Origin: an uncultured Mageeibacillus sp.
Lineage (GTDB): Bacteria > Bacillota > Clostridia > Saccharofermentanales > DTU023
DNA length: 64,000 nt
Assembly: GCA_964346695.1 (NCBI GenBank)
Contig: CAYFVK010000002.1
Location: forward strand, 22,321 to 86,320
Direction: 5' to 3'
Part shown: positions 24,981 to 61,350 of the stretch, in pieces
Position numbering within the stretch: position 1 is the stretch's first letter
How the letters are laid out: each line of letters starts with the position of its first letter
Translations under genes and position numbers: made by a program
The notes under the pieces: model-generated
The model's database searches: none
Seen by the model: only the letters and a program-made list of their open reading frames with translations
Told to the model about the DNA's origin: nothing

Positions 24981-25055
24981 GCCTCCTTAGTTAAATGGAT
25001 ATAACAAACCCCTCCTAAGGGTTAGTTGTGAGTTCGATTCTCGCAGGGGGTACCA
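24981..25055 (+). tRNA. tRNA-Arg (anticodon CCT), CCA encoded
   Basis: Manual cloverleaf: acceptor GCCTCCT/AGGGGGT (2 G-U pairs), D arm GTTA-AATGGATA-TAAC, anticodon arm AACCC-CTCCTAA-GGGTT, T arm GTGAG-TTCGATT-CTCGC, discriminator A plus CCA. Confidence 0.9.
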
Positions 25056-25064
25056 AGCCGGAAA

Positions 25065-25107
25065 GCGGTTATTGATACAATTTCGTGTATCGATAACTGC
25101 TTTTTTT
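25065..25107 (+). terminator. Rho-independent terminator of the tRNA-Arg(CCT) gene
   Basis: A 15-bp stem GCGGTTATTGATACA-atttcg-TGTATCGATAACTGC (2 G-U pairs) followed by TTTTTTT. Confidence 0.75.
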
Positions 25108-25216
25108 GTTTTGATTCTATTTTTGTCCGGAATGGAAAATGTGATTTCGTTTGTATGGATGATTTCACGCAGGGATGATAAAACAGCCTCAGTTTTCAAG
25201 GACTAAAAGGAATAGC

Positions 25217-25321
25217 ATGGGAGTTTCCTATGATAAACTTTTACATTTATTGATTGAACGACAAGTAAGTAATTCAGAGCTTATTAAAAAACTGGTTTTT
25301 CTGAAATGGTGCGTATACTAA
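25217..25321 (+). pseudogene. Remnant of a small XRE-type HTH regulator gene
   Basis: MGVSYDKLLHLLIERQVSNSELIKK resembles the N-terminus of short Cro/C1-type HTH proteins. The frame then runs into LVFLKWCVY*, and the expected recognition helix is missing. Confidence 0.3.
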
Positions 25322-25350
25322 AGGTTGTTTTATGGAACAATAAGAGAATA

Positions 25351-26167
25351 ATGAAAAAGACAATAGATTGGGGTGATAAATATACTCTTACCTGAACAGT
25401 TAATTGAAAAGCTCAAAAGCAAAGGTGTAAAATTTGAATTGTATTCAGAAGAGGATGCGATTGATTTTATAAATTATCACAACTATTAGGTAAAGTTAAC
25501 TGCTTATAGATCGAATTTCAGTAAACATAATAATCAATATGTAGGCTTAGACTTTCTATCTTTGAAAGATTTATCTACTATTGATATGCATTTAAAGCAT
25601 CTAATTTTGAAGGCCACACTAGGCATTGAACATTCTCTCAAAGTGAACGTTCTTAAAGATATTCAAGAAAGAAACATAGATGAGTTTCAGCTGGTTCGTG
25701 ATTATTTATCTCGGTTTAACAGGGTTCTAGATGTACTAAATGAAAGACGGAATAGTAGCTATGTGAAGAATTTATTATCTAAATATCCACACCCGGATTA
25801 TCCGATTTGGGTATTTCTTGAAGTAATTTCTTTTGGTGAATTTGTTAACTTTTATAGATTTTATTGTGAAACATATAACTGTGGCTCTTTGGATTATAAA
25901 ATTCTATATAGTGTTCGTGATATTCGTAATGCTGCTGCTCATAATAACTGTATTATTCACAATTTTCTTGATAAGAGTGGTTATTATAAAAAAGAAGTTG
26001 TATCTAAAGTACAAGTTCTTGTACCAGGGCTAAGATTAGGAACAATACGAGATAGATTAAAGAATCAGTCTGTGCAGGATTTTGTTTCAATTTTGATTGC
26101 ATTGGATACAGTTGTTATGAGCAAGGAATTTAAAAAGCAACTCTTGAGCGAATTTGCTACACTATAA
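25351..26167 (+). pseudogene. Abi-like (Abi_2/AbiD-F type abortive-infection family) gene, disrupted by one frameshift and one in-frame stop
   Basis: ATG 25351 gives MKKTIDWGDKYTLT*. The reading continues in another frame as LPEQLIEKLKSKGVKFELYSEEDAIDFINYHNY, then an in-frame TAG (25487-25489), then VKLTAYRSNF... The intact 3' part (ORF 25562-26167) carries SVRDIRNAAAHNN, the conserved Abi_2 core. Confidence 0.6.
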
Positions 26168-26259
26168 CCTACAAAAACGTTACACGATAAGGTATGGCAA
26201 GCTTTACAACAGCCTTAGCGGGTGCAGCGTCCGCAAGTACAAATTGCTCTTGATTTTCG

Positions 26260-26892
26260 CTATTTTTTGCTTTCATACTCATATCCTCCTTGAATGACAC
26301 CATAGAGTAATATATTTAATGCTTTCAAACTGCTTTCCTCCCTTTCAGCAAAAGCATGACCGTCCGGATCCGTCATGTGCCAACGGGCGTTGATAAAATC
26401 CTGAAACTGACGAAAAACTTCAATCACTTCTTCAATTGACATGTCAGGACGCAGCGACGCGGAAGATAGCAGATTGCGCAATATTTGAATGTTCAGTTGA
26501 TCAAATTTCTGTTTGCTTGTCTGAATTGCGGTGCTCAGATGAGATGGAGGAGAAATGACCGCTTCGCAGAAAATCCTTCTATATACGGGTGATTCCCGGA
26601 AAAAAGATGTGCGCAGTCTAAAATAATTTTTCAACTGATTTTCAATGGAAGTATCTGTGTCGGAAATATTATTTTGTATATATTCTGTCAGCCGATGAAA
26701 GCATTCGTCCACACAGGCCAGATACAAGGCATCTTTCGTTTCGAAATAGTGATAGACAATGCCCTTGGAAAGATTCTGAGCAGTGCAGATTGTATTGATT
26801 GAGCTCGCTCCGTAACCCCGGCTCGAAAACTCAGCCAGAGCACTGTCCATAATTTTTCGTTTCATTTTTTGACTTTTTTCAGAACGTTCCAT
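26260..26892 (-). CDS. TetR/AcrR-family transcriptional regulator
   Basis: N-terminal HTH region: KIMDSALAEFSSRGYGASSINTICTAQNLSKGIVYHYFETKDALY. I prefer ATG 26892 (MERSEKS), preceded by a GGAGGG RBS. Confidence 0.85.
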   Translation of the reverse strand: MERSEKSQKMKRKIMDSALAEFSSRGYGASSINTICTAQNLSKGIVYHYFETKDALYLACVDECFHRLTEYIQNNISDTDTSIENQLKNYFRLRTSFFRESPVYRRIFCEAVISPPSHLSTAIQTSKQKFDQLNIQILRNLLSSASLRPDMSIEEVIEVFRQFQDFINARWHMTDPDGHAFAEREESSLKALNILLYGVIQGGYEYESKK

Positions 26893-26946
26893 ATTTTTCC
26901 CTCCTATAAAATAGACCACTAAGTTAATCCTGAACGAATTTAGGAC

Positions 26947-29571: not shown

Positions 29572-29724
29572 TCTTGAAATTAGAAAACGCCGTATTCTGC
29601 TTTCCGAAAGGATCCTGTTCCTGATCATGATAATCTGATTGATTACTTAATATAAGAGCGATCCGCTTTCATCAATTTGTATAATGTCGAAACTCCGGGA
29701 TTTCAAAGACAAAGGGGGACTCGT

Positions 29725-30729
29725 ATGGCAGCCAAAGAGCGTAAAGGTGAGAATCAAAAGCTGAAGATGCTGTATCTGGTCAAGATTTTTCTTGAAGAAA
29801 CGGATGATCAGCATGCTCTGACAATGAAGGAAATCATCGAAAAGCTGGAAAGCTATGGTGTCAGCGCAGACCGAAAAACCTTATATCTTGATTTTGCGGA
29901 ACTCAGAAATTTCGGTTTGGATATTGTCGCTGAAAAAGAGGGGAGAAATTGCTACTACTCGCTTGTCGGCCGTCGTTTTGAACTGCCTGAGCTCAAACTC
30001 TTAGTCGATTCCGTCCAATCTTCCAAATTTATCACAAATAAAAAATCTAAAGAATTAATTAAAAAGTTGGAGTCTTTGGTAAGCAAGCATGAAGCTAAAC
30101 AATTACAGCGTCAGGTCGTGATTTCCGGCCGTATCAAATCGATGAATGAGAGCATTTATTATAATGTCGATAGGATTCATGAGGCGATCGGATCCGATGC
30201 CAAAATTCGTTTCCGCTATTTTCAGTGGAATCTCAAAAAAGAAATGCAATTGCGCCGCAAAGGCGCATTTTATGAAGTCAGTCCTTGGGCGCTGATGTGG
30301 GAAGATGAAAATTATTATCTGATCGCCTATGACAGCAGAGATGATAAAATCAAACATTATCGTGTCGATAAAATGCTGCAAATCTCGGTTCTGAAGCAAA
30401 AGAGAGAAGGGCTGGAACAGATCAAGACCTTCGATATGCCCCGCTATACCAATCGCCTTTTCGGCATGTACGGTGGCGAAGAAACGAATGTCACATTGCG
30501 GGTCAAAAATGAATTGATCGGGGTCATGATCGACCGCTTCGGCAAAGATATTCTCATCATGCCTGTTGATGAAAATTATTTTCAAACAGTCGTTCATGTT
30601 TTTCTGAGCAATCAATTCTTGGGTTGGATTTTAGCTTTAGGCGAGGGCATGAAAATTATCGGTCCGGAAAAAGTTGTTCAAAGTATGCGTTCCGAATTGC
30701 AAAAACTTGCGCAGCTTTATCAAATATAA
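29725..30729 (+). CDS. WYL-domain transcriptional regulator (N-terminal wHTH, central WYL, C-terminal extension)
   Basis: The wHTH region reads LKMLYLVKIFLEETDDQHALTMKEIIEKLESYGVSADRKTLYLDFAELRNFGLDI. The WYL-type core reads IRFRYFQW...YEVSPWALMWEDENYYLIAYDSRDDKIKHYRVDKM. ATG 29725 follows an AAGGGGGA RBS and a TTGTATAAT extended -10. Confidence 0.8.
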   Translation: MAAKERKGENQKLKMLYLVKIFLEETDDQHALTMKEIIEKLESYGVSADRKTLYLDFAELRNFGLDIVAEKEGRNCYYSLVGRRFELPELKLLVDSVQSSKFITNKKSKELIKKLESLVSKHEAKQLQRQVVISGRIKSMNESIYYNVDRIHEAIGSDAKIRFRYFQWNLKKEMQLRRKGAFYEVSPWALMWEDENYYLIAYDSRDDKIKHYRVDKMLQISVLKQKREGLEQIKTFDMPRYTNRLFGMYGGEETNVTLRVKNELIGVMIDRFGKDILIMPVDENYFQTVVHVFLSNQFLGWILALGEGMKIIGPEKVVQSMRSELQKLAQLYQI

Positions 30730-30872
30730 TCTCGCAAATACCGGATTTTTCCTATATAAAATGCCATATTCCTATGTATATTTCAGCTTTTGCTGCCCAC
30801 TCATTAAGTCTGTTTTTTGGGACTAATGCTCCTCTATAATAAAAGTATCAAAGAGTAAAGGAGTGTAAGCCA

Positions 30873-31268
30873 ATGGATATGATTTATTTTACAATCGCGG
30901 GTACTTGCCATTATTATGGAGCGGAATTTTTGGAACCGAAGATGCAGGTTTGTCTGGTTAAGGAACCTGACAATGAAGCTGATAAGGAAGCCATAAAAGT
31001 AGAATTGCCGGGGCTTGGTCTAATCGGCTATGTCGCGAACAGTCCCTATACCGTTCTCGGTGAAAGTTACAGTGCCGGCAGACTATATGACAAATTCGGC
31101 GACAATGCTCAAGGAACAGTTCTCTATGTCACCGATAAAGGTGTGCTTTGTACACTCAATCTCGAAAATTTATCTGAAACAGACGAAACTGAAGCGGTTA
31201 ATCTCAATGAGTCTGATCAGGAAAATGAGTCTGATCAGGAAAATGAGTCTGATCAGGAGACAGATTAA
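30873..31268 (+). CDS. Stand-alone HIRAN-domain protein with an acidic repeat tail
   Basis: FTIAGTCHYYGAEFLEPKMQVCLVKEPDNEADKEAIKVELPGLGLIGYVAN matches the HIRAN pattern (G..yY.G...l..g..v.L.rEPdN..D.nAI.V...g..iGYv). The C-terminus is NESDQE x3. Confidence 0.75.
   Translation: MDMIYFTIAGTCHYYGAEFLEPKMQVCLVKEPDNEADKEAIKVELPGLGLIGYVANSPYTVLGESYSAGRLYDKFGDNAQGTVLYVTDKGVLCTLNLENLSETDETEAVNLNESDQENESDQENESDQETD
31206..31259 (+). repeat. 18-bp tandem repeat x3 inside the HIRAN gene 3' end
   Basis: AATGAGTCTGATCAGGAA occurs three times in a row (last base A>G in copy 3) and encodes NESDQE x3. Confidence 0.95.
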
Positions 31269-31373
31269 ATTCAGTCAAGACAAATTTTATGCTAAAATTG
31301 AATTCAGATTTTGTTGATTGTTCCGCTTATTAAAGAAAGCATTGAACGGTTCTTAGCTGAGGAGTGTGAAATA

Positions 31374-31739
31374 ATGACCTTGTTTGAATTCATAAAAAGC
31401 ATAGCCCGATTGCCGATCGATAAAGCTTTTGCATCTATTAAAAATCATCAGGATTATTCAGATCACCTGAAAAGCGAAGCTCCGCATTTTCTGCAGCCGG
31501 AAGGCAAGACGTTTACCCTCTATTCAGATGATTTCATTTTTAAAAACGGAGATGTTATTTCCTATACGGCACAGGAGGATCCGAAAAATCACCAGCCTTT
31601 GCCGAATGGCTTCTGGGATTATTATCTTTCGAGCAAACGTTTATGGTATCGCTATGAAGTGGAGGAAGAAGCATTCGTCTTTCATGACACCAGCAAAGAT
31701 CATCGTGAAGTTAAACCTAAATTTGCCAAACATGGTTGA
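31374..31739 (+). CDS. Hypothetical 121-aa protein, no recognisable motif
   Basis: ATG 31374 (MTLFEFIKSIARL...) follows a GAGGAG RBS. The stop codon lies 3-6 nt before the next gene's start. I recognise no family. Confidence 0.5.
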   Translation: MTLFEFIKSIARLPIDKAFASIKNHQDYSDHLKSEAPHFLQPEGKTFTLYSDDFIFKNGDVISYTAQEDPKNHQPLPNGFWDYYLSSKRLWYRYEVEEEAFVFHDTSKDHREVKPKFAKHG

Positions 31740-34212: not shown

Positions 34213-35361
34213 TTAATCAACTGTAAAGTAAAACGGAAGCTCGGCAAACTTCAAACGGCAAAAATCCTTTAAGGGATAAGTTTGATGCTTGTTGAGCTTT
34301 TTTCCATCGACAAAAGTGCCGTTCGCGGATCCTAAATCCTGAATGAAATAATGGCTGCCATGTCTTGAAATCCTGGCATGGACTCTGCCTATGGATTTTT
34401 CATTTAAAATTAAATCGCAGATCGCCTTATCGCGACCGATCAAAAATTCATCGATCAGAATAAATACCCGCAGCCCCTCATTTTCTTCCAAGGTGCCGGG
34501 TTGTCCTTCTGAAATCATAGCCAGACGATATAATTCATCTTGCGGCGATAAGGGAACGGTAGTCTCATCTTTAGCAGTCTTTTTTCTGTAAAAAAAGGAT
34601 TTGATTTTATCACTTAAACTTGTTTTATCCCGCTTGTAAACAGCTTGATTTGTTCCGGAAGATGTTGATCGAACGGAGTCTTCTTTTTCCTGCTCTCTCT
34701 GTTCTGAATCCTGAGAAGATTTTTGTTCGCTTATTTCCGAAGTATTGAGTAAATCTCTTTGATGTTGCAAGAGTTCCGGAATTTCTGCAAATTTTGCCTG
34801 TGTGATCAATGTGCCAAACCTTTCATAGAATGTTTTGTGATCCGGATCAAGCTTTGAAAATTCATGCCAAATCAATGAGTTTTCTTCGTCATCCGATTTT
34901 TCTCTCTTTTCTATAAATTGCGGAATCGTAAACCATCTTAGACAAGCAGATATTTCCGATGAATTTTTACCCCTGATGATCTGCTCAAGAGAAAAAGCAT
35001 TTAACAATTCTTGCAAATCTCGGGAAACTTCAAGGTATTCAGTTGTTAGGAAAGAAAAATTGAGAGAAAAAAGATTCTCTTCTAAATATAATAACTGGCG
35101 GTACAGGATCAATAATATTTTGATAAAATCATTGTTTTCACTTCCTGAATTCAAATTTTTCTCAGCCGCGTTTTCCAGCCAGTCACTTAAACTTGTTTGA
35201 TTTTCTGTTTGAACCAAAAGCAAATAAAACTGATCGCTCGTTTCATCATAAAAAGCGGAATATTTTCTTGAAAAAGGAAATGGATGTTGAATGATATGCA
35301 GAAGCTCCAACTTCTGCATATCGCTCAATTTGTTGATTTCTACTCGCCGCAGCTTTCCCAT
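34213..35361 (-). CDS. FHA-domain protein with an uncharacterised N-terminal domain; last gene of the Tad-like operon
   Basis: The C-terminal FHA reads FLIGRDKAICDLILNEKSIGRVHARISRHGSHYFIQDLGSANGTFVDGKKL. The middle is low-complexity and Ser/Glu/Gln-rich. No TM segment. Confidence 0.75.
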   Translation of the reverse strand: MGKLRRVEINKLSDMQKLELLHIIQHPFPFSRKYSAFYDETSDQFYLLLVQTENQTSLSDWLENAAEKNLNSGSENNDFIKILLILYRQLLYLEENLFSLNFSFLTTEYLEVSRDLQELLNAFSLEQIIRGKNSSEISACLRWFTIPQFIEKREKSDDEENSLIWHEFSKLDPDHKTFYERFGTLITQAKFAEIPELLQHQRDLLNTSEISEQKSSQDSEQREQEKEDSVRSTSSGTNQAVYKRDKTSLSDKIKSFFYRKKTAKDETTVPLSPQDELYRLAMISEGQPGTLEENEGLRVFILIDEFLIGRDKAICDLILNEKSIGRVHARISRHGSHYFIQDLGSANGTFVDGKKLNKHQTYPLKDFCRLKFAELPFYFTVD

Positions 35362-35369
35362 TTTGACTC

Positions 35370-35555
35370 CTAATATGAAATACCGTCAATAATCGAATGA
35401 TCAAAGACCTTGTTGATTAAGCTGTTGGCAAAACTTGTCAATTCCGCTCTGAATATCAAAGCTACTGCCACTAATACTGCGATAATCAATACGATCTCCA
35501 ATGTTCCCAAGCCGCTTTCATCATTGATTTTTCTTTTGAATTTTTCGTTGTTCAT
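35370..35555 (-). CDS. Flp-family type IVb pilin-like prepilin (61 aa)
   Basis: A charged leader (MNNEKFKRKINDESGLG) is followed by TLEIVLIIAVLVAVALIF. This is a Gly followed by an acidic residue and a hydrophobic helix, typical of Gram-positive Flp-like pilins. It lies directly downstream of the TadB/C gene. Confidence 0.6.
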   Translation of the reverse strand: MNNEKFKRKINDESGLGTLEIVLIIAVLVAVALIFRAELTSFANSLINKVFDHSIIDGISY

Positions 35556-35573
35556 CGTAAGCCTCCTTAATTT

Positions 35574-37085
35574 TTAAATAGTAATATTTCCTAAACTAGC
35601 GACGGCAGGTAACATGGCCATGATAATGACTAAAAACAAATCAATCGTCATAGGAAATAGCAGAATCAGATTTTTTGCCTGTAGTCTTTTACGCATGGCG
35701 TTTCTGCATAATTGCCAACTAGCATTAGCCTGAATATCTAAAATGTCTAAAATTTCCTGACCGCCGTCGCGATCATATCTTGCCATCAGCTGCAAAATAG
35801 AAGCGATCTCTTCCTGAGGTAAATTTTCAGTGATATTGAGTAAAGCAAAAGCCGCGCTTTCGCCGACGCTGAGTGCATGATTTATTTTGGATAAGTCGTT
35901 TTTTAACTGAGAATGTAAATTTCCCTGATAGGAGCTGATCATCAAACGCAGACTTTTTTCCAAACTTAAACCGCTTCTTAATAAAATGACCATGGAATTA
36001 AGAAAGTTTGGATACTCGATTCGGATTTGCTGTTTTAATTTATTTTCTCTTTGAATAATATCGAAATCCTGAATCAGCCAAATGAAAAGCAGCGGCAGTA
36101 TAAAGATCTTCCAGCTAATGATTCGCAAAGCGATCAGAATTGCGCAGATTATTGCGCTGAAAAGTGTCAGCAGAAGTTTGCGGCGAATATAAATGAGCCA
36201 TGCCTGAGGCTGATTTTTGCTTAGAATCCGCACGCTTTCAGAAAGATTATAACCGAATTTTACGGGTAAATGGCTGATCAGAAATTGACTGATAAAAACC
36301 AGCAGCTTGCTCTGCGGGATACGCTTCGGCAAGGTAATATAGATATCTCTTTTGTTCAGCTGCAAAGGATTTTTGGACATGATCAGAAGTACTAAGAAAA
36401 TCGAAAAATGCGACAGTACAAAGATGATTGCCAGGAGGAACAAACTCCATGGTGCGGTGAGCAAAGATTCGGAATATACCGTATCCTGCCTGATCAGGAC
36501 AAAGGAAAACAGAAACGGTAAAAAGAGCAAGATCAGGGCTTCGCTTTTTTGCGCGTTCTGTTCTGATTCAATATCCTTTTGCATTTGAATTTCTGAATTT
36601 AAAGTACGATAAGTCTGTTTGACAAAAATATCCAATCGTCCGCCATAATGATTCAAGTAAGGCAATACGTCAAAGAAGGCATTGCTGGTCTGACAATTAA
36701 ATTTATCTTTGAGCATTTTTAGAGAGCGATCCAGATCAAGATGTGCCTGCATAGATTGTTCTAACTGTTTTAACGATTTTGCCAAAACGCTTTTGTAACC
36801 CAGTTCATTTTTCAATCTTGAAAAGGATTCCAGCAATATGGATTCCAGAGTATGACCGGCAGATAAACGGCTGCTCAAATATTCTAAAAAGATTCGATAT
36901 TGTTCAATTTTGGCGGAGTTCTGACGACCTGCCATATATTTTGTAAAAGCTAAATTGATCAAGATCGTGCAGAGAATCAGAATCATCAGACTATAATGGT
37001 CCAGATCCAGCCATGTTAAATAGGTCAGGTAGATAAAAAGAAATGAGGGGATGATATTTTTACTGAAATTTTTTATAAATGACAT
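35574..37085 (-). CDS. Fused TadB/TadC-like type II secretion system F-family membrane platform protein
   Basis: 503 aa with two T2SS-F-like repeats (..LSSRLSAGHTLESILLE.. and ..MVILLRSGLSLEKSLRLM..), each followed by TM helices. It overlaps the CpaF gene by 13 nt. Confidence 0.7.
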   Translation of the reverse strand: MSFIKNFSKNIIPSFLFIYLTYLTWLDLDHYSLMILILCTILINLAFTKYMAGRQNSAKIEQYRIFLEYLSSRLSAGHTLESILLESFSRLKNELGYKSVLAKSLKQLEQSMQAHLDLDRSLKMLKDKFNCQTSNAFFDVLPYLNHYGGRLDIFVKQTYRTLNSEIQMQKDIESEQNAQKSEALILLFLPFLFSFVLIRQDTVYSESLLTAPWSLFLLAIIFVLSHFSIFLVLLIMSKNPLQLNKRDIYITLPKRIPQSKLLVFISQFLISHLPVKFGYNLSESVRILSKNQPQAWLIYIRRKLLLTLFSAIICAILIALRIISWKIFILPLLFIWLIQDFDIIQRENKLKQQIRIEYPNFLNSMVILLRSGLSLEKSLRLMISSYQGNLHSQLKNDLSKINHALSVGESAAFALLNITENLPQEEIASILQLMARYDRDGGQEILDILDIQANASWQLCRNAMRKRLQAKNLILLFPMTIDLFLVIIMAMLPAVASLGNITI

Positions 37086-38317
37086 CGTAATTCTTCTCCC
37101 TCTCTTTTGAATAGTACTTTGGTGATAAATTTTTGCTCTTGATATCCGATGATCCTGACAATTTCATCTACTACTCTTTTGCCGTCGGGCAGACGAATTA
37201 AATGAATATTCAAATCAAGAGCGGAGGCGACTAATCTGCGAATAGCCTCCCACGGCAAACTGGAAGCCATCAGAATCATCAGACAAATGCGATCCAGCAT
37301 TTCTAAACTGTTGTTACCGTGACCGGTCGACATGGAGCCGGGGTGGCCGGTGCTCATCGCCTGAATCATCTCAAAAGCCTCTTCGCCCCGGATTTCTCCC
37401 ACGATGATGCGATCCGGGCGCAAACGCAGGGAAGAGCGGATTAAGCGTTCCAAAGTGATAGCACCTTGCCCGTCCGGCCCCGCCTCTCTTGATTCAAGAC
37501 GCACCAGATTATCAATGCCCTGCAGATCCAGTTCCAGAGAATCCTCTATCGTCACAATGCGTTCATCCTTGGCGATAAAGGATGATAATGCGTTGAGAAA
37601 AGTGGTCTTGCCTGTACCTGTACCACCTGAAATAAAAATATTCTTCTTTTGTCGCACCATCTCGATCAAAAATTCGGCGGCTTGTTCACTTAAAGTCTGA
37701 TGTTCAATCAAAGAATCGAGGCGCGGCTTAATCCCGGTAAACCTTCTGATACTCATGATCGGACCTTCCGGCGCAGACGGAGGCAAGATTGCGTGAATCC
37801 GCGAGCCGTCCGGCAGACGCATACCGTTAATCGGATTCTGTTCATTGATCAGACGATTCGCTTTGCCGAAAAATCTGGTGATGATATAAGTCAGATGCTC
37901 GGCATGATCAAAGACAATCGGCGTTTTATAGATTTTGCCCTCGCGTTCAATAAAGACATGATCAAAGCCGTTGACCATGATTTCTGTGATGGAATCATCG
38001 TTTAATAAAGGCTGAAGCAAATCCAAACCGCGCATGGAATTAAACAATTGATTGACCAGATTTCTGCGTTCCGGCAAACTGAGTTCCGCCAAATCATGAT
38101 ATTCCGCTAATAATTTGGTCAACAACTGTTTCAGCTCCTGATCACTCAAAGCGTCAATATTTTCATAGCGGGAAACGAGATGTTCGATAAAATTCTGCCG
38201 TTCTCGATGGGAAAGCATTTTTCGTTGATTTGCAGGGTATGAGATATTATTTTGTTTATACATATGATTTTTCTTCATTCCTATCACCTGAATCAAATAT
38301 TTTATCCGGTTTGTCAA
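37073..38317 (-). CDS. CpaF/TadA-family secretion ATPase
   Basis: Walker A ISGGTGTGKTTFLNAL, TIEDSLEL, RPDRIIVGEIRGEEA (Walker B/Asp box) and the His box GHPGSMSTGHGNS. The exact start is uncertain because of several Met codons. Confidence 0.88.
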   Translation of the reverse strand: MTNRIKYLIQVIGMKKNHMYKQNNISYPANQRKMLSHRERQNFIEHLVSRYENIDALSDQELKQLLTKLLAEYHDLAELSLPERRNLVNQLFNSMRGLDLLQPLLNDDSITEIMVNGFDHVFIEREGKIYKTPIVFDHAEHLTYIITRFFGKANRLINEQNPINGMRLPDGSRIHAILPPSAPEGPIMSIRRFTGIKPRLDSLIEHQTLSEQAAEFLIEMVRQKKNIFISGGTGTGKTTFLNALSSFIAKDERIVTIEDSLELDLQGIDNLVRLESREAGPDGQGAITLERLIRSSLRLRPDRIIVGEIRGEEAFEMIQAMSTGHPGSMSTGHGNNSLEMLDRICLMILMASSLPWEAIRRLVASALDLNIHLIRLPDGKRVVDEIVRIIGYQEQKFITKVLFKREGEELRCHL

Positions 38318-39220
38318 TTAACTGTGGAGAGCAATAAAAGCGGTGCTATCCGGTTTTTCCGCCAACCACTCGGCGATCAATTCTTTGATCTTTCGATCGG
38401 CAAATGTTTTTTCTTCGGGGATGCGCATATAGCAGCTATCTGTCTGAAAAGAGATATTTTTTATCATTTGAAACGGCAAGGTGGCGGCGTCAATGATACC
38501 CTGAGCATCCGAGCCGCTGTATTCGAGGAAGTTTCTAAATGTTGCGACGAGATGATCTATTGTCTCGGCGGAACAATTTGCAATATCGTCACTGTTTTTA
38601 CCCGGCCGCGGCAAAAAATAGCCGGCTTTTTGCTTTTCAAAGAGATGACCGAATTCTTTCAGCACGGGTTCAATCCCCGCTTCGAGTTCTAATAAACAGT
38701 CGGATAAGCTGACTCCTTGATGGAATACGGCTTCATAACGCCACTGATAAAGGGGCTTTAAGGGTAATATAAAAATTCTTTTGCCTGATTTTTTCTGTCG
38801 GTTTATGATTTGCCGAAAATCTGTTTCGTTTTGATCTTGAAAGCAATAGTAGAGCAAAAGACGATGCTCCGTTCTATTATTGTCAGAACTGTCGGCATGT
38901 AAAGCGACGATTATTTTTTTTCGCCATTCAGCCGGAGAATCCAGACGCGAAAAATCATCCGCAGAACTCAGCGAGCTCTCGGATAACAGACGAACGGCAG
39001 AAGAATTTTTCAACTGGGCGATATCTTTCACAAAACTTTCATGAATAATAAATAAATCGAAGCCGGAATGAAGCCGGTCAAAATTCCTTATGCTGCTGAT
39101 TTGGAATAATGGCTTCGGCAAAGTGTTAAGATAATTTTCAATCCTTTTTGAGTAGTCGGTATTCGGATCGACCAGCAAAACTTGTTTCATGATTTTGGTC
39201 CTCGCATTTCTCGTCATCAT
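38318..39220 (-). CDS. Hypothetical 300-aa protein in the position normally held by TadZ/CpaE; no Walker A visible
   Basis: It is the first gene of the operon, and its stop abuts the CpaF start. The N-terminus looks receiver-like (VLLVDPN...FDLFIIHESF). No GxxGxGK[ST] motif occurs anywhere in the 300 aa. Confidence 0.4.
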   Translation of the reverse strand: MMTRNARTKIMKQVLLVDPNTDYSKRIENYLNTLPKPLFQISSIRNFDRLHSGFDLFIIHESFVKDIAQLKNSSAVRLLSESSLSSADDFSRLDSPAEWRKKIIVALHADSSDNNRTEHRLLLYYCFQDQNETDFRQIINRQKKSGKRIFILPLKPLYQWRYEAVFHQGVSLSDCLLELEAGIEPVLKEFGHLFEKQKAGYFLPRPGKNSDDIANCSAETIDHLVATFRNFLEYSGSDAQGIIDAATLPFQMIKNISFQTDSCYMRIPEEKTFADRKIKELIAEWLAEKPDSTAFIALHS

Positions 39221-39511
39221 GATTCTACGGCGCCGGATGAATCTGTACGTCCGGCAAAAAATTCTTGTATTGACAGCTTATTGTTTTTAGCCAATGATTT
39301 TTGGACTTTAATTTTGAAAAACAGATAAAAATAAGAAAACAATATTCGGGGAGAACTGAAAGACTGTAAAACCGGCATAGCGGCGATAGAACCGTGATGA
39401 ATAATTTTTGACTTGAACTTTTGGCTGTGCTAATTTTTATTCAACTCAAATTCACTAATATCATTTCCGGACATTTTCAATAAACATAGCTTAAAGCGAG
39501 AGGTGGCTGAG

Positions 39512-40544: not shown

Positions 40545-41568
40545 ATGAGAAAAACAGGCAAACTCGTTGCCCTCTTTTTGGGACTTTTGCTGATCTTAGG
40601 GGCTTTTCCCATGGGAATTGTCTCTGCCTAAGCAGGAGATGTTGCAATCAATGAAACCAATTTCCCGGACGAGATTTTTAGAAACTATGTGCGGGAAAAC
40701 TTTGATGCCGATGGTAATGGTTTGCTCTCTTTAGCAGAACGGGAGGCTGTAACGGAAATTGATGTTGAGAGGGAACAAATTCATGATGATTCGGATCCGG
40801 GTATCTGCAGTCTAAAAGGTGTGGAGTATTTTTCGAAACTCGAGAAGCTTAATTGTCACAATAACTCTCTGACTTCGTTAAATGTGAGGCGGAATACGGA
40901 ATATCCAATTTTGATTGTTCTGAGAATCTGTTGAGCTCATTAGATTTGAGCCGGAATTCAGATTTATTAGGTCTTGAGTGTTCTAACAACAATCTGACCA
41001 CATTAGATGTGAGTAATATTTTGTATCTTGTAACCTTGTCGTGCAATGGGAACCGGCTGACCAGTTTGGATTTGAGCAACAATTCCGAATTGTTTAGCTT
41101 TGAAGGAGATGACCAAAATTACGATATCAACGTTAATCAAGCCGACTTGACTTTTGATCTCAACAACTTGCCCGGCAGCTTTGATCCTGTTAAGGCAAGT
41201 AATTGGGTCGGCGGAACAGTCAACGGCACAACCCTGACCCTTGATTCTACCTTGGTTGGCACAGTGACCTATCATTATCAAGCAAGGCAAGACAGGAACT
41301 TTGATGTTACTCTGCATATTGCGAATGCTCAAGCATTGGTGAAGCCGCAGGGAATCTATACCATTGAGCAGGCAAATATCCCGGTGAAAGAATTTACGGT
41401 GTCTGGATAGGAAATTATTACCGTTATTATGACAACGGCGTCAAAGTCATCGGGACGAAAGCGAAAGGGGCGAAAATCTACGCGGTCGACTTAGGAGCGA
41501 AATCCTCTTATTACCGATTCTATGAGAACGGCAGAGTCAAACTGATTCACGAATCCTGTGTGCAATAA
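40545..41568 (+). pseudogene. Secreted leucine-rich-repeat surface protein gene carrying one nonsense codon and two frameshifts
   Basis: The signal peptide MRKTGKLVALFLGLLLILGAFPMGIVSA is followed immediately by an in-frame TAA (40629-40631), then AGDVAINETNFPDEIFRNYV... The 22-aa LRR units (LEKLNCHNNSLTSLNV.., CSENLLSSLDLSRNSDLL, GLECSNNNLTTLDVSN.., LSCNGNRLTSLDLSNNSEL) continue only after a frame change near 40895-40908. A second frame change near 41400-41412 leads to YYRYYDNG/YYRFYENG repeats that end at TAA 41566-41568. Confidence 0.65.
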
Positions 41569-53687: not shown

Positions 53688-54539
53688 ATGATGGAATTAA
53701 AAAATTATCAGGTATACGCCTTAAAATCTTTGGGCAGGAATTCATTTCAAGGTTATTTGCAGGAAAACGGGCAAAAAATAGTCTTGAAGCCGGCGGAGCA
53801 TTATGTCGATCAAAAGGTTGTCTGCCTGCTTCATGCTCTGATCATGCCGGGGCTGCCGCATATTATCGGAACGGCTCAATATCAGGATAAACGTTGGATA
53901 ATACAAAACTGGCTGGAGGGAGAATCTCTGTTCGCGAAAGTTCATAGCGGTCCGGAAGTAGAATCCTTTTTAGACCAATTGCTTAGCCTGATCGACCATT
54001 TGGAGAGTATTAGCGGTCTGAACTGGTTTTTTATGGACTTGAAAACGGAGCATTTGCTGCTCAATCCGTATCATCAAATCTGCCTCATCGATTTTGAGCA
54101 TGTTGTCTTATCGACAAAAACATCTGTTCCCTGGCAGGAGCTGGCGCAGATCGGCGTTACCCCGGGATACTGTTCGCCCGCGATCAGATCGGATTTTCTC
54201 ACGAAAAAACATCAGAATTATGCGCTGGCAATGATTGGTCTGAGTTTGCTGTCCGGCAAGCAGGTCAGCGAGCTGGATCAGTCGACCAAAGAAGCTGCGC
54301 TGGCAGAACTTTCTTCCGGCTGGCAGGAAAGGTTTAGAAATGCCATGTTGACGTGCGGTTTTCAAAATGAACCGGATCAAAATCAGCCTGCCCTGGGAGA
54401 TGATTTATCCTTGGAGGCGGAGATTCCCCGGCTCAAAGTGAAGGCCGAACAAATGCGAAAGGGGAAACCGGATTTAATTATTGAAAAAGCCGGAGAGAAG
54501 ATTGAAAATCCTTATACAATCAATATCTATTTGCCTTAA
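53688..54539 (+). CDS. Stand-alone protein-kinase-like protein with degenerate catalytic motifs
   Basis: Collinear kinase subdomains are LGRNSFQG (G-loop-like), IVLKP (VAIK-like), WLEGESL (hinge), FFMDLKTEHLLL (HRDLKPxN-like), LIDFEH (DFG-like) and GVTPGYCSPA (TPxYxAPE-like). ATG 53688 or 53691. Confidence 0.5.
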   Translation: MMELKNYQVYALKSLGRNSFQGYLQENGQKIVLKPAEHYVDQKVVCLLHALIMPGLPHIIGTAQYQDKRWIIQNWLEGESLFAKVHSGPEVESFLDQLLSLIDHLESISGLNWFFMDLKTEHLLLNPYHQICLIDFEHVVLSTKTSVPWQELAQIGVTPGYCSPAIRSDFLTKKHQNYALAMIGLSLLSGKQVSELDQSTKEAALAELSSGWQERFRNAMLTCGFQNEPDQNQPALGDDLSLEAEIPRLKVKAEQMRKGKPDLIIEKAGEKIENPYTINIYLP

Positions 54540-59001: not shown

Positions 59002-59361
59002 ATGGAACGAACAGAAATGTTGTGCAAGAACTATGAGTTCGAAAGGGTCTTTCGCAAAGGTCGGTATTATAATTCGAAACACTTGACACTATATGTACGT
59101 TCGAGACAAGATCATCGTTTAATGCTGGGGATTACCGTTTCAAAGCAAGTAAAAGGCAGTGTCAGACGCAATCAGGTGAAAAGATGGTTGAGGGAAGTTT
59201 ATCGAAGTACGGAACAAGATATATCTTCCGGTTATGATTTAATTCTATTCGGACGTAAAGGTCCCGAGGAAACGAATTATCATGAACTTTTGGCAGCATG
59301 GCAAAAATTGAGCAAAGATGCGCGTATTATTGCGGATAAAGCGGATACTCCTGATGAATAA
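59002..59361 (+). CDS. rnpA: Ribonuclease P protein component
   Basis: [12 protein letters not shown]...[24 protein letters not shown] contains the RNR motif. It holds the conserved position after rpmH. Confidence 0.9.
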
Positions 59362-59363
59362 AG

Positions 59364-59606
59364 ATGTTAAGTAAATTAGCGATAAAGCTGATCCGATACT
59401 ATCAGAAGAATATTTCAACGCTATCAGGCCCCAGATGTAAGTATTATCCTACCTGTTCGCAGTATGCGATTGAAGCTATCGAAACATGGGGACTAATCAG
59501 AGGAATATTCTTAGCTGCATGGCGAATCTTAAGATGCAATCCCTTTAGTAAAGGCGGATACGATCCTGTGCCGGAAAGAAAAAGAAAAGAAAAAAGGAGC
59601 ATGTAA
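59364..59606 (+). CDS. yidD: Membrane protein insertion efficiency factor YidD
   Basis: [10 protein letters not shown]...[20 protein letters not shown]...[17 protein letters not shown]. Confidence 0.9.
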
Positions 59607-60590
59607 ATGCCTACATTACCAGTAATCATGGGGTTGATGGATCCATTGTATAACCTCTTTGGCTGGATTTTACGCAATATGTATATCTGGCTCGAAAACT
59701 ATGGTCTGGTTATTATCGTTTTTACGGTTTTACTGAATGTTCTGTTATTACCTTTTGGCATTAAATCGCAAAAGGGTATGTTAAAGCAGCAGGGCCTGCA
59801 GGATGAAATCAATGAGATCAAAAGATTATACCCTGATGATCCGCAGCAACAGCAGCAATTACAACAGGAATTATTTAAAAAGAACGGGATTTCTCTGACT
59901 TCAGGTTGTTTGCCTTCGCTATTAAGATTGATTTTGATTATTCCGGTATTCCGAATTTTCCAACAGCCGCTGCAATATATCGGCGGTGTTTCCGCGGAAA
60001 ATATCGCCAATATCAAAACTTATTTGGTGGATAACGGTTTAATAGCCGAAGCGGCGCAAAAACAACTGCTCAGGATGGATATTCCTGTGATTTCTGCATT
60101 GCGGGAGAATGCCAGTGCACTCGGCTCAGTCGTTGAAAAAGGCTGGTTGAAATTAAATCAGTTAATCGATTTGGACTTTCTGGGAATTAATCTGGGCAGA
60201 ATACCATCCTGGAAACCGGCGGACATTTTCGGAGAACAATCGAACATCTATTTGCCGCTTCTGATTTTACCGATATTAACGCTCATTTCGATGATTATTC
60301 AAATGCGTTTAATGAACAAAATTTCGCAAACGAAAAAATTCGATAAAGAAGAAGATGACAGAGCAAAAAGAAATCCTGCGAAAAAAGATCAGACAGTGAA
60401 AAATCAGGCTGCCGGAACCATGAGAACGATGAACATTTTTATGATCGTTTTGATGGTTTGGACCGTTTTCGCTTTACCGTCCGCAATGGGTATTTACTGG
60501 GTGGTCAACACGGTAATGGGTATACTTCAGTCCTTGTTTATATACAAATTCTACACCAAACCATTCCGTGAAGCTTTGGAAGCAAAATAG
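59607..60590 (+). CDS. yidC: YidC/Oxa1-family membrane protein insertase
   Basis: GLVIIVFTVLLNVLLLPF, QQELFKKNGISLTSGCLP and LPSAMGIYWVVNTVMGILQ. The ATG overlaps the yidD stop. Confidence 0.9.
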   Translation: MPTLPVIMGLMDPLYNLFGWILRNMYIWLENYGLVIIVFTVLLNVLLLPFGIKSQKGMLKQQGLQDEINEIKRLYPDDPQQQQQLQQELFKKNGISLTSGCLPSLLRLILIIPVFRIFQQPLQYIGGVSAENIANIKTYLVDNGLIAEAAQKQLLRMDIPVISALRENASALGSVVEKGWLKLNQLIDLDFLGINLGRIPSWKPADIFGEQSNIYLPLLILPILTLISMIIQMRLMNKISQTKKFDKEEDDRAKRNPAKKDQTVKNQAAGTMRTMNIFMIVLMVWTVFALPSAMGIYWVVNTVMGILQSLFIYKFYTKPFREALEAK

Positions 60591-60619
60591 GCCAGTTACA
60601 ATTAAAGGAGAAATATAAA

Positions 60620-61348
60620 ATGACACAAACCTTGGAAGTTTCGGCGCGAACAGTTGAAGATGCCATAGAAAAAGGTTTACAAGAGCTGCAGTTAGAAAAA
60701 GAGGATGTTGAAATCGAAATCGTTGATCAGGGAGACAGCGGCGGTTTATTCGGATTCGGCAGAAAGGATGCGATTGTCCGCTTAACCTATACGGTTCAGG
60801 AAGCCTCTGAAACGGCTGAGGAGCCTGAGACTGCTCCGACTGAATCGGCTGACAGCAAAGAAGAACCTGAAATTATCAATACGGAAGAACAAGAAGAAAT
60901 TGAACAGCAAGCGGTAAAATTTGTCGCGAGCGTGATGCAAAGTTTGGATATTCATGGCAAAATGTCCTCTTATTTTGATGAAGAGGGCACGTTACATTTA
61001 AATATTATCGGCGATAATCTGGGTGCTGCCATCGGCAGAAGAGGCGAAACCTTAGACGCATTGGAATATCTGACAATTTTAGCCATCAATAAATATCGTG
61101 AAAGCTATACCAGAGTTTTTCTGGATATTGGCGGTTATCGTGAGAGAAGAATCAAATCAGTAGCGCAAAATGCCAGAAAATCAGCGGAAAGAGTAATCAA
61201 GACGGGTAAAAAATATACCCTGAAGCCGATGTCGTCCGCTGAACGTCGTCAGGTGCATCTCGCTCTGCAGGATTATCAAGGCGTTAGAACATATAGCGAG
61301 GGAAGAGAACCGGATCGCTGTGTTGTGATTTTCCCCGAAAATTCATAA
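60620..61348 (+). CDS. jag: Jag/KhpB RNA-binding protein (Jag_N, KH, R3H)
   Basis: The N-terminus reads TVEDAIEKGLQELQLEKEDVEIEIV. The KH-like segment reads GAAIGRRGETLDALEYL. The R3H segment reads LKPMSSAERRQVHLAL. Confidence 0.85.
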   Translation: MTQTLEVSARTVEDAIEKGLQELQLEKEDVEIEIVDQGDSGGLFGFGRKDAIVRLTYTVQEASETAEEPETAPTESADSKEEPEIINTEEQEEIEQQAVKFVASVMQSLDIHGKMSSYFDEEGTLHLNIIGDNLGAAIGRRGETLDALEYLTILAINKYRESYTRVFLDIGGYRERRIKSVAQNARKSAERVIKTGKKYTLKPMSSAERRQVHLALQDYQGVRTYSEGREPDRCVVIFPENS

Positions 61349-61350
61349 AT

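What the first reader, a model, noticed from the sequence alone, without database searches (positions are those of the whole stretch)
34213..39220. Minimal five-gene Tad/Flp-like pilus locus ending in an FHA-domain gene, with no prepilin peptidase or minor pilins, divergent from comFC
The minus-strand operon runs as follows: 300-aa unknown protein, CpaF/TadA ATPase, fused TadB/C platform (503 aa, two T2SS-F repeats), 61-aa Flp-like prepilin, and a 382-aa protein with a C-terminal FHA domain. Genes abut or overlap (13-nt overlap, 9- and 18-nt gaps), so they are probably co-translated. Compared with described Tad systems, several parts are missing: TadV/CpaA prepilin peptidase, TadE/F/G-type pseudopilins and a recognisable TadZ ATPase. 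An FHA (phospho-Thr binding) protein is present instead. The locus also looks more AT-rich than its neighbours. It is divergently adjacent to comFC, and Flp/Tad pili are required for natural transformation in Micrococcus luteus. A phospho-regulated, DNA-uptake-related or adhesion pilus is therefore possible. The function of this compact Firmicute variant is, to my knowledge, not experimentally defined.
Basis: partly seen in the sequence, partly recalled or inferred. Interest (0 to 1): 0.6.

Follow-up and report, generated by a model that had tools for sequence, protein, structure and literature searches.

The report
Minimal Tad pilus operon with FHA adaptor
This is a real, strongly conserved five-gene Tad/Flp-type pilus operon of uncultured anaerobic-digester Clostridia; its 'unknown' first gene is a TadZ relative without an ATP-binding loop, and its last gene encodes a pseudokinase-like/FHA adaptor that always travels with the machine.

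Summary

New results:
1. The 300-aa "unknown" is a TadZ homologue. Its best structural and profile hit is E. rectale TadZ (3fkq). Its Walker A loop is lost in the whole family.
2. The FHA protein has a divergent DUF6382 N-domain with a kinase-like fold closest to EssB. An invariant T-x-x-L/I motif lies just upstream of the FHA domain. In the FHA domain the canonical phosphate-binding Ser is usually Gly.
3. The gene order TadZ-like, TadA, TadBC, Flp, FHA is the same in every sufficiently long related contig, about 50 loci from Saccharofermentanales-type MAGs and digester metagenomes. The operon sits among housekeeping genes (upp, metK, cysS). It is therefore vertically inherited and not an island.
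4. No prepilin peptidase or minor pilin was detected in the 64-kb window or the relatives' flanks. A fuller Clostridial Tad operon, with two A24 peptidases and TadE-like genes, also ends in a DUF6382-FHA gene.

The comFC link is shared synteny only. Verdict: a new variant of a known kind, never tested experimentally, of moderate interest.

The parts
38318..39220 (-). TadZ-like scaffold protein. It has an N-terminal atypical receiver-like domain and a C-terminal ParA/MinD-like domain without a Walker A loop. The likely true start is M11 at 39190 (290 aa).
   Evidence: There is no Pfam hit. The AF2 model has pLDDT 91.8. The Foldseek top hit is 3fkq, E. rectale TadZ, E 2e-11, followed by Wzc/ParA/MinD-type ATPases. 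A family profile hits 3fkq at E 2.7e-9, and the GGVGTST P-loop of TadZ is replaced. None of 89 family members has a P-loop at that position. The gene always lies directly upstream of TadA.
37073..38317 (-). TadA/CpaF-type secretion ATPase. The probable start is the ATG at 38278 (RBS AGGTGA) or at 38218 (381 aa, as in homologues).
   Evidence: Pfam T2SSE, E 1.4e-51. The best NCBIfam match is the TadA-family model TIGR03819, 261 bits, below its 373 cut-off. Walker A GGTGTGKTT, the Asp box, Walker B DRIIVGEIRGEE and the His box are read directly from the translation. Identity to cassette orthologues is 52-79%.
35574..37085 (-). Fused TadB-TadC inner-membrane platform (503 aa, about 6 hydrophobic segments, two T2SSF repeats).
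   Evidence: Pfam T2SSF, two stretches. Hydropathy was computed. The separate TadB (246 aa) and TadC (404 aa) of locus L064 match its N- and C-halves respectively. It overlaps the TadA gene by 13 nt.
35370..35555 (-). Flp-like prepilin (61 aa). The predicted class III signal peptide is cleaved after G15 (codon 35511-35513), which puts E20 at +5. The mature pilin would be about 46 aa.
   Evidence: Flp1_like PF16982 is above its cut-off, and Flp_Fap is below its cut-off. An alignment of about 30 orthologues shows that conservation begins at (G/A)|[LFIVA]GT[LI]E. It is the only ORF in the window with such an N-terminus. Identity to cassette orthologues is 42-88%.
34213..35361 (-). Cytoplasmic adaptor protein. 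[quoted passage not shown]
   Evidence: FHA, E 6.8e-19. The AF2 N-domain has pLDDT 80-92. The Foldseek top hit is the S. aureus EssB pseudokinase 4ann, followed by Ser/Thr kinases (prob 0.97, E about 1e-2). Relatives hit PF19909 DUF6382 above its cut-off. hhalign of the N-domain profile against those relatives gives 95% probability, E 3.6e-8. The Ser-to-Gly change at the SxxH position is shown. The Thr is present in all 44 cassette proteins whose upstream segment was extracted. No transmembrane segment is predicted.
39221..39502 (.). Divergent intergenic region between the operon and comFC. It presumably holds the operon promoter.
   Evidence: A weak sigma-70-like match, TTTACA-18-AATATT, lies at 39370-39341 on the minus strand. 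This is a consensus match only.

Best explanation
This is a complete, vertically inherited, streamlined type IVc (Tad/Flp-like) filament machine of monoderm Clostridia, in the Saccharofermentanales / 'Mageeibacillus'-type lineages of anaerobic digesters.

Proposed mechanism:
1. The hexameric TadA ATPase powers a single-chain TadB-TadC platform.
2. The platform extracts a roughly 46-residue Flp-like pilin from the membrane and polymerises it.
3. The pilin must first be cleaved at G15|L16 by an A24 prepilin peptidase encoded elsewhere in the genome and shared with another type IV filament system.
4. A TadZ-like protein that can no longer bind ATP through a P-loop acts as a passive docking or localisation scaffold.
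5. The fifth subunit is a soluble pseudokinase-like (DUF6382) plus FHA protein. It acts as a cytoplasmic adaptor or regulator of the motor.
6. Its invariant T-x-x-L/I motif, just upstream of the FHA domain, is a candidate target of a Hanks-type kinase. Once phosphorylated, it could be bound by the FHA domain in cis (GarA/OdhI-like switch) or in trans (oligomerisation), gating assembly.

Shown here: gene content, homologies, synteny, loss of the P-loop, conservation of the motif and absence of local peptidase or minor-pilin genes. Inferred: pilin processing in trans, filament formation, the phospho-switch, and adhesion as the most likely output.
For: - Domain and fold assignments for all five proteins.
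- Catalytic motifs of TadA are intact.
- The pilin has G/A at -1 and E at +5, and conservation starts exactly at the predicted cleavage site.
- Gene order is identical in every related contig long enough to hold all five genes: about 30 species-level genomes and about 20 of 35 metagenome contigs. TadA keeps 52-79% identity and the pilin 42-88%.
- All flanking genes are housekeeping and lie on the opposite strand.
- A canonical DUF6382-FHA protein also closes a fuller Clostridial Tad operon that does carry two A24 peptidases and TadE-like genes.
- T-x-x-[LI] is present in all 44 family members whose upstream segment was extracted.
- Literature precedents: prepilin peptidases are shared between systems (PMC6668835); Bdellovibrio PilD processes the Tad pilin (bioRxiv 10.64898/2026.07.08.737194); a fused TadC/TadB platform exists in Clostridia TANB77 (PMC11680825); FHA proteins occur in the Myxococcus Kil Tad-like system (PMC8460266); DUF6382-FHA proteins are predicted T7SSe/f components (PMC11217815).
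Against: - No prepilin peptidase could be shown, because only the window and ±10 kb flanks could be searched.
- No minor pilins were found, and these normally prime Tad pilus assembly.
- The FHA Ser that contacts the phosphate is Gly here and in 36 of 46 relatives, so canonical pThr binding may be weakened or lost.
- AF2 modelled the FHA domain poorly (pLDDT below 70).
- The kinase-like fold match is weak (E about 1e-2).
- No kinase or phosphatase is linked to the operon.
- The unusually high pilin conservation and the housekeeping context would also fit a non-exposed pseudopilus.
- No isolate, expression data or phenotype exists.
Confidence: 0.7

Rival explanations
1. It is a DNA-uptake (competence) pilus. 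The Flp filament would capture DNA that is handed to ComEC/ComFA/ComFC, as in the Tad-dependent transformation of Micrococcus luteus.
For: A ComF-family gene is divergently adjacent. A comFC-like gene lies within about 3.5 kb upstream in 26 related loci, and recD2 in 13.
Against: The same neighbourhood also holds metK (28 loci), cysS, upp and rlmL. This is shared ancestry within one lineage, not specific coupling. In most relatives metK and other genes separate comFC from the operon. No comEA, comEC or comG genes are in the window. The ATPase scores far better as TadA than as ComGA (261 against 64 bits).
Confidence: 0.12
2. It is not a surface pilus but a short, non-exposed pseudopilus or piston. 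It would be a T2SS-like or signalling device that serves a housekeeping envelope function.
For: The pilin is as conserved as the ATPase. There is no tip or minor pilin and no adhesin. The locus has core-genome synteny. The DUF6382-FHA partner family is otherwise predicted to belong to a secretion system, T7SSe/f (PMC11217815).
Against: No candidate substrates are linked to the operon. Flp pilins are always short and largely a buried helix, which in itself explains the conservation. No such function is known for any Tad system in monoderms.
Confidence: 0.13
3. It is a decaying remnant of a larger Tad operon (like L064) and no longer assembles anything, because TadV, the TadE-like pilins and the TadZ P-loop are gone.
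For: The fuller Clostridial operon has peptidases, TadE-like genes and DUF5702 that are absent here. The P-loop is lost.
Against: All five ORFs are intact and in the same order in about 50 independent loci, at up to about 50% divergence in TadA and about 75% in the TadZ-like protein. The ATPase motifs are intact. This pattern is purifying selection, not decay.
Confidence: 0.04

Closest known systems
Tad/Flp (type IVc) pili: A. actinomycetemcomitans tad, C. crescentus cpa, and the monoderm Bifidobacterium breve tad2003 locus
   Same: It shares the TadA/CpaF ATPase, TadB/TadC platform domains, a short Flp-type pilin with a class III signal peptide and E+5, and a TadZ-type protein upstream of TadA.
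   Different: The platform is one fused polypeptide. The TadZ-like protein lacks Walker A. No TadV or TadE/F/G was detected in or near the locus. The pilin lacks Y+6 and belongs to Pfam Flp1_like, not Flp_Fap. A DUF6382-FHA protein is an obligatory fifth gene.
Eubacterium rectale TadZ (PDB 3fkq; Xu et al. 2012, cited in PMC11217815 and PMC10499894)
   Same: It has the same two-domain architecture, an atypical receiver domain plus a MinD/ParA-like domain. It is the best fold hit and the best profile hit.
   Different: E. rectale TadZ keeps a GGVGTST nucleotide-binding loop. The family found here has none.
Full-size Clostridial Tad operon ending in a canonical DUF6382-FHA gene (locus L064/L065, unnamed metagenome organism)
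   Same: It has the same order, TadZ-like, TadA, platform, Flp1_like, then a DUF6382-FHA gene at the end. Its TadA matches at E 1e-130.
   Different: L064 has two A24 peptidases, separate TadB and TadC, DUF5702 and two TadE-like proteins. Its FHA domain keeps the canonical Ser.
TseJ/TsfJ of the predicted T7SSe/T7SSf systems of Bacillota (PMC11217815)
   Same: They have the same DUF6382-N / FHA-C architecture and the same split into soluble forms and forms with two transmembrane helices.
   Different: They are encoded with EssC-type ATPases and WXG100 proteins, not with Tad genes. Neither system has been tested experimentally.
Myxococcus xanthus Kil Tad-like apparatus, and FHA proteins of T6SS (Fha1/TagH), T3SS (YscD) and T7SSb (EssC FHA plus EssB pseudokinase)
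   Same: FHA modules are attached to the cytoplasmic face of an envelope nanomachine. In Kil they are attached to a Tad-type machine (PMC8460266). The EssB pseudokinase is the top fold hit for the N-domain.
   Different: Kil is a diderm system with a secretin and an FHA fused to the ATPase. There is no sequence relationship beyond the FHA domain, and no linked kinase or phosphatase here.
GarA/OdhI-type FHA phospho-switch
   Same: A conserved Thr motif with a hydrophobic residue at +3 lies about 35 residues N-terminal to the FHA core. OdhI is a weak NCBIfam hit for the FHA core.
   Different: This is a resemblance only. No kinase is known, the partner domains differ, and the phosphate-binding Ser is Gly in most members.

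Membership tests
Tad/Flp type IVc pilus system | TadA/CpaF-clade secretion ATPase with intact Walker A/B, Asp and His boxes | tested here: met
   T2SSE, E 1.4e-51. The best NCBIfam model is the TadA-family TIGR03819, 261 bits, below its strict 373 cut-off. The motifs were read from the translation.
Tad/Flp type IVc pilus system | TadB and TadC platform proteins (one T2SSF domain each) | tested here: met
   Both are present as one fused 503-aa protein with two T2SSF stretches. The halves match the separate TadB and TadC of L064.
Tad/Flp type IVc pilus system | Short Flp pilin with a class III signal peptide, G at -1, E at +5 and Y at +6 (Flp motif) | tested here: inconclusive
   Flp1_like PF16982 is above its cut-off, and G15|L16 with E+5 is conserved. 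Flp_Fap PF04964 is below its cut-off (16.6 against 32.2 bits), and Y+6 is replaced by I/V. This matches the 'Flp-like' class of Gram-positives in PMC3244431.
Tad/Flp type IVc pilus system | TadZ (atypical receiver domain plus MinD/ParA-like ATPase domain that binds nucleotide) | tested here: inconclusive
   Fold and profile homology to TadZ 3fkq are met. The nucleotide-binding Walker A is absent from all 89 family members.
Tad/Flp type IVc pilus system | Dedicated TadV/CpaA prepilin peptidase (Peptidase_A24) | tested here: not met
   No small multi-TM ORF was found in the window. phmmer with two A24 peptidases from L064 gave no hit in the window or in the 63 loci held at that point (L001-L063). 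No Pfam A24 hit appeared among the annotated window genes. The rest of the genome could not be searched.
Tad/Flp type IVc pilus system | TadE/TadF-type pseudopilins | tested here: not met
   The Flp gene is the only ORF in the window with a class III signal-peptide-like N-terminus. The TadE-like proteins of L064 have no homologue in the window or in loci L001-L063. No conserved extra gene flanks the cassette.
Tad/Flp type IVc pilus system | Assembled extracellular filament | not testable with these tools
   This needs EM or cryo-ET of an expressing organism. All carriers found are uncultured MAGs.
FHA domain (phosphothreonine-binding module) | FHA fold and sequence family | tested here: met
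   PF00498, 68.5 bits against a cut-off of 20.7. The profile hits solved FHA domains.
FHA domain (phosphothreonine-binding module) | Canonical pThr-contact residues: GR, SxxH, and (S/T)xNG | tested here: not met
   G309-R310, H328 and S345-x-N347-G348 are present. The Ser is G325 ('iGRvHA' aligned to 'iSRqHA'). It is Gly in 36, Ser in 9 and unresolved in 1 of 46 family members. Binding itself was not tested.
DUF6382 (PF19909) - FHA proteins (TseJ/TsfJ-like) | N-terminal DUF6382 domain | tested here: inconclusive
   The window protein has no direct Pfam hit at E<=1. Cassette orthologues score above the cut-off (L024 46.1, L026 33.3, L020 30.6 bits). Profile-profile hhalign gives 95% probability, E 3.6e-8, over 162 columns.
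Protein-kinase-like fold / pseudokinase (EssB-like) | Bilobal kinase fold; catalytic Lys, HRD and DFG for an active kinase | tested here: inconclusive
   The top Foldseek hits are the EssB pseudokinase and many Ser/Thr kinases, but at E about 1e-2 and TM 0.2-0.4. No invariant Lys, Asp or Asn occurs in the N-domain, so if it is kinase-like it is catalytically dead.
Competence (ComG-type) pilus of monoderms | ComGA ATPase, ComGB platform and ComGC-type pilins | tested here: not met
   The ComGA model scores 64 bits against a cut-off of 300. The pilin is Flp1_like. No ComG-type pilin N-terminus occurs in the window.
Type VII secretion system e/f | EssC/FtsK-type ATPase and WXG100 protein next to the DUF6382-FHA gene | tested here: not met
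   Neither appears among the annotated window ORFs (short WXG100-size ORFs were not scanned) or among the conserved flank genes.

The most novel reading that the evidence does not exclude
DUF6382-FHA proteins are a portable, catalytically dead kinase-like/FHA adaptor. Bacillota plug this adaptor into unrelated envelope nanomachines, namely Tad-type filaments here and T7SSe/f elsewhere. In this minimal operon it would take over the gating role that an ATP-binding TadZ normally plays. It would switch pilus assembly on or off through phosphorylation of its invariant T268-x-x-L motif, which is then read by its own atypical (Ser-to-Gly) FHA domain.
Probability: 0.25. Interest if true: 0.7.

Novelty: new variant of a known kind. 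Interest (0 to 1): 0.5.

Why it matters
Tad pili are studied almost entirely in diderm Proteobacteria. How a monoderm builds one, and with how few parts, is an open question. This cassette defines a naturally minimised set that has been kept intact across a whole lineage: a TadZ-like scaffold, an ATPase, a single-chain platform, one pilin and one adaptor. That makes it an attractive target for reconstitution and structural work.

It also links a pseudokinase-like/FHA protein family, so far only predicted for T7SS variants, to a second and unrelated machine. This points to a common regulatory plug-in in Bacillota. The carriers are abundant but uncultured members of anaerobic digesters, where cell-cell and cell-particle attachment matters for syntrophy and fibre degradation.

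Tried and rejected
- **Acquired AT-rich island: rejected.** GC is only about 1.8 sd below the window mean. The locus sits in the same housekeeping synteny in about 30 genomes.
- **FHA gene as a chance neighbour: rejected** by strict synteny.
- **Peptidase and minor-pilin search.** I used a hydropathy screen, phmmer with the L064 A24 peptidases, TadE-like proteins and DUF5702, a regex for class III signal peptides, and Pfam on about 37 window ORFs. Nothing was found. Sensitivity is limited for very divergent A24 enzymes, and the rest of the genome was out of reach.
- **Third homologous-protein search,** with the 89-sequence TadZ-like profile. It returned only 4 proteins because of word-index limits.
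- **AF2 of the FHA domain** gave low confidence, so the geometry of the Gly-substituted pocket could not be examined.
- **Promoter and terminator scan** was uninformative.
- **Rfam** found only two tRNAs in the window.
- **X-family HMM** did not detect the 344-aa protein upstream of TadA in L064. Its TadZ identity there is inferred from position only.
- **The 283-aa kinase-like ORF at 53688-54539** was considered as the partner kinase. It lies 14 kb away, and I have no evidence of linkage.

Full report
**1. Observation**

The region 34213-39220 carries five co-directional minus-strand ORFs of 300, 414, 503, 61 and 382 aa.
- The ATPase hits T2SSE at E 1.4e-51. Its best NCBIfam model is the TadA-family TIGR03819.
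- The 503-aa protein has two T2SSF stretches.
- The 61-aa protein hits Flp1_like PF16982 at E 1.4e-15, above the cut-off.
- The 382-aa protein has an FHA domain at residues 307-372, E 6.8e-19.

Gene junctions:
- TadA and TadBC overlap by 13 nt.
- The TadBC-to-Flp gap is 18 nt.
- The Flp-to-FHA gap is 8 nt.
- The TTG start listed for TadA is probably too far upstream. An AGGTGA ribosome-binding site precedes the ATG at 38278, and homologues are 381-385 aa.

The first gene probably starts at M11, since the database protein is 290 aa. GC content is 40.1% against 43.2% for the window, and about 8% of 5-kb windows are as low. The 'AT-rich' remark is therefore marginal.

**2. The 'unknown' first gene is a TadZ homologue without a P-loop**

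The protein has no Pfam hit. A whole-library HMMER search found 101 representatives of a family of about 300-390 aa, and none of them has a Pfam match either.

An AF2 model built on 89 of these sequences is confident (pLDDT 91.8). It shows an N-terminal receiver-like α/β domain and a C-terminal ParA/MinD-like domain. The best Foldseek hit, spanning both domains, is PDB 3fkq (E 2e-11), followed by Wzc, ParA and MinD-type ATPases. 3fkq is the Eubacterium rectale TadZ structure (PMC10499894; Xu et al. 2012 as cited in PMC11217815). The family profile also hits 3fkq by sequence alone (E 2.7e-9).

In that alignment the GGVGTST nucleotide-binding loop of TadZ is replaced by unrelated residues. None of the 89 members has a Walker A at that position. 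What is missing is the ATP-binding loop, not the protein.

**3. The FHA protein**

No transmembrane segment is predicted. AF2 models residues 1-210 with pLDDT 80-92. The linker is disordered, and the FHA domain is, oddly, modelled poorly.

*N-domain.* The top Foldseek hit is the cytoplasmic pseudokinase fragment of S. aureus EssB (4ann), followed by dozens of Ser/Thr kinase domains (probability up to 0.98, but E about 1e-2). The window protein does not hit Pfam DUF6382 directly. Orthologues in the same cassette do, above the gathering score. A profile-profile comparison of the two groups gives 95% probability and E 3.6e-8 over 162 columns. No Lys, Asp or Asn is invariant in the N-domain. I therefore read it as a divergent, catalytically dead, kinase-like DUF6382 domain.

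*FHA core.* GR, His and S-x-N-G are kept, but the Ser of the SxxH motif is Gly ('iGRvHA' aligned with 'iSRqHA'). Among 46 distinct cassette proteins, 36 have Gly, 9 have Ser and 1 could not be scored.

*Upstream motif.* About 35 residues upstream of the FHA core, a Thr followed by Leu or Ile at +3 (T268-V-P-L271 here) is present in all 44 proteins whose upstream segment was extracted. It is also invariant in an alignment that includes a canonical DUF6382-FHA protein. From general knowledge of FHA specificity, pT-x-x-(I/L/V) is a typical ligand. The layout recalls the ETTS phospho-switch of GarA/OdhI. This is an inference, not a result.

*Membrane forms.* 14 of the 46 proteins carry predicted transmembrane segments between the two domains, two in most cases.

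**4. The cassette is conserved as a unit**

Exact-sequence look-ups and a scan of one genome per species returned about 32 Bacillota loci. They are labelled Mageeibacillus sp., Fastidiosipila sp., Saccharofermentanales, Oscillospiraceae or 'Clostridiaceae' MAGs, mostly from digesters. A metagenome scan returned 35 more contigs, about 20 of them long enough to hold all five genes.

Mapping five HMMs onto all ORFs shows the order TadZ-like, TadA, TadBC, Flp, FHA in every contig long enough to contain it. Hits outside Bacillota share only a generic FHA domain. Identity to the window proteins is as follows:

| Protein | Identity to window |
|---|---|
| TadA | 52-79% |
| Flp pilin | 42-88% |
| TadBC | 24-67% |
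| TadZ-like | 22-40% |
| FHA protein | 33-55% |

This is purifying selection on the whole unit. No cultured isolate is among the carriers.

**5. Surroundings**

Clustering of flank ORFs shows only housekeeping genes, all on the opposite strand.
- Upstream: metK (28 loci, absent in this window), a comFC-like gene (26 loci, including the window), recD2 (13) and cysS (10).
- Downstream: upp (24) and an RlmL-type methyltransferase (22).

The locus is therefore an old chromosomal resident. The comFC adjacency in the window results from loss of the intervening metK. It is shared ancestry and not specific coupling.

The rest of the window is housekeeping and lies near the replication origin, with rnpA-yidC-jag-mnmE at 59-63 kb. 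I found no com genes other than comFC, no PP2C phosphatase and no secretin.

**6. What is missing, and the fuller relative**

Three searches found nothing:
- No small multi-TM ORF occurs in the window.
- phmmer with two A24 peptidases, two TadE-like proteins and DUF5702 from locus L064 finds nothing in the window or in the 63 loci held at that point (L001-L063).
- The Flp gene is the only ORF in the window with a class III signal-peptide-like N-terminus.

Locus L064/L065 carries a canonical DUF6382-FHA protein (P0022). It shows what the fuller system looks like: Peptidase_A24, a 344-aa protein in the TadZ position, TadA, TadB, TadC, Flp1_like, DUF5702, a TadE-like protein, a second Peptidase_A24, a second TadE-like protein, and finally DUF6382-FHA. 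The FHA adaptor is therefore also present in this larger Clostridial Tad system. The window cassette is a streamlined version that has fused TadB with TadC and lacks the peptidase and the minor pilins.

Each peculiarity has a precedent:
- Peptidases shared between systems: PMC6668835, and Bdellovibrio PilD processing the Tad pilin (bioRxiv 10.64898/2026.07.08.737194).
- A fused TadC/TadB platform in the Clostridial clade TANB77: PMC11680825.
- Flp-like pilins without Y+6 in Gram-positives: PMC3244431.
- FHA proteins in the Myxococcus Kil Tad-like system: PMC8460266.
- DUF6382-FHA proteins (TseJ/TsfJ, soluble or with two TM helices) predicted as T7SSe/f components: PMC11217815.

I found no paper describing a DUF6382-FHA protein as a Tad component, or this cassette.

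**7. Mechanism**

My best reading, at about 0.7, is a working minimal type IVc filament machine.
- TadA energises the single-chain TadBC platform to polymerise the roughly 46-residue pilin. The pilin is first cleaved at G15|L16 by a peptidase encoded elsewhere.
- The P-loop-less TadZ-like protein acts as a passive scaffold.
- The DUF6382-FHA protein acts as a cytoplasmic adaptor or regulator, possibly switched by phosphorylation of the T-x-x-L motif.
- Adhesion to particles or partner cells is the most likely output, by analogy with other Tad pili.

Rivals and their probabilities:
- A competence pilus, about 0.12. It is supported only by neighbourhood.
- A non-exposed pseudopilus or secretion device, about 0.13. 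It is suggested by the very conserved pilin and the lack of minor pilins.
- A decaying remnant, about 0.04. It is contradicted by the conservation pattern.

**8. Verdict**

This is a new variant of a known kind, a minimal Tad-type operon with a conserved pseudokinase-like/FHA subunit and an ATP-blind TadZ. Interest is moderate, and a clear experimental path exists.

Noticed in passing
window 24981-26919: A tRNA-Arg(CCT) gene at 24981-25055 is followed at once by the lowest-GC kilobase of the window (31.8%). That patch carries an Abi_2 (abortive-infection-like) gene at 25562-26167 and a TetR regulator at 26260-26919. It looks like a small element or defence islet inserted at the tRNA.
   Followed up: no
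window 53688-54539: A small soluble protein with a divergent protein-kinase domain (Pkinase 34.8 bits, just above the cut-off) lies downstream of tig-clpP-clpX. Its catalytic loop reads FMDLKTEHLLL, and DFG is DFE. It is the only kinase-like gene in the window. It could be a partner for the FHA protein, but it lies 14 kb away and linkage is untested.
   Followed up: partly
window 40689-41410: Two overlapping ORFs in different frames (40689-40934 and 40931-41410) encode leucine-rich-repeat-like sequence between comFC and cysS. The second ORF, the only one scanned, has no Pfam hit at 1e-5. This is probably a frameshifted or truncated LRR surface-protein gene.
   Followed up: no
window 39221-39502, compared with L003-L040: metK lies about 430 nt upstream of the cassette, in divergent orientation, in 28 related loci. 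It is absent from this position in the window, which is what brings comFC next to the operon.
   Followed up: partly
window 29677-31739: A WYL/WCX-domain regulator (29677-30729), a HIRAN-domain protein (30873-31268) and a 142-aa protein with no family (31311-31739) sit next to the RlmL-type methyltransferase. The 142-aa protein recurs downstream of the cassette in 11 related loci.
   Followed up: no
L064 2130-11125 (and L065): A full Clostridial Tad operon has two separate Peptidase_A24 genes, DUF5702 and two TadE-like proteins (N-termini RGSYTVEAAL and RGSLTVETAL), and ends in a canonical DUF6382-FHA gene. It lies next to the flagellin/FliS and BofA genes of a flagellated organism that carries a sporulation-associated gene.
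   Followed up: partly
L020, L022, L024-L027, L075, L077-L079, L084, L100 (FHA genes): In one sub-clade of the cassette, the FHA protein carries two predicted transmembrane helices between the DUF6382 and FHA domains. This mirrors the soluble TseJ and membrane TsfJ forms described for T7SSe/f (PMC11217815).
   Followed up: partly
window 59002-62817: The genes rnpA, yidC, jag and mnmE lie in the usual origin-proximal order. Cumulative GC skew rises almost monotonically across the window, so the window lies on one replichore close to oriC (yidC, jag and mnmE are named from gene order and were not scanned).
   Followed up: no
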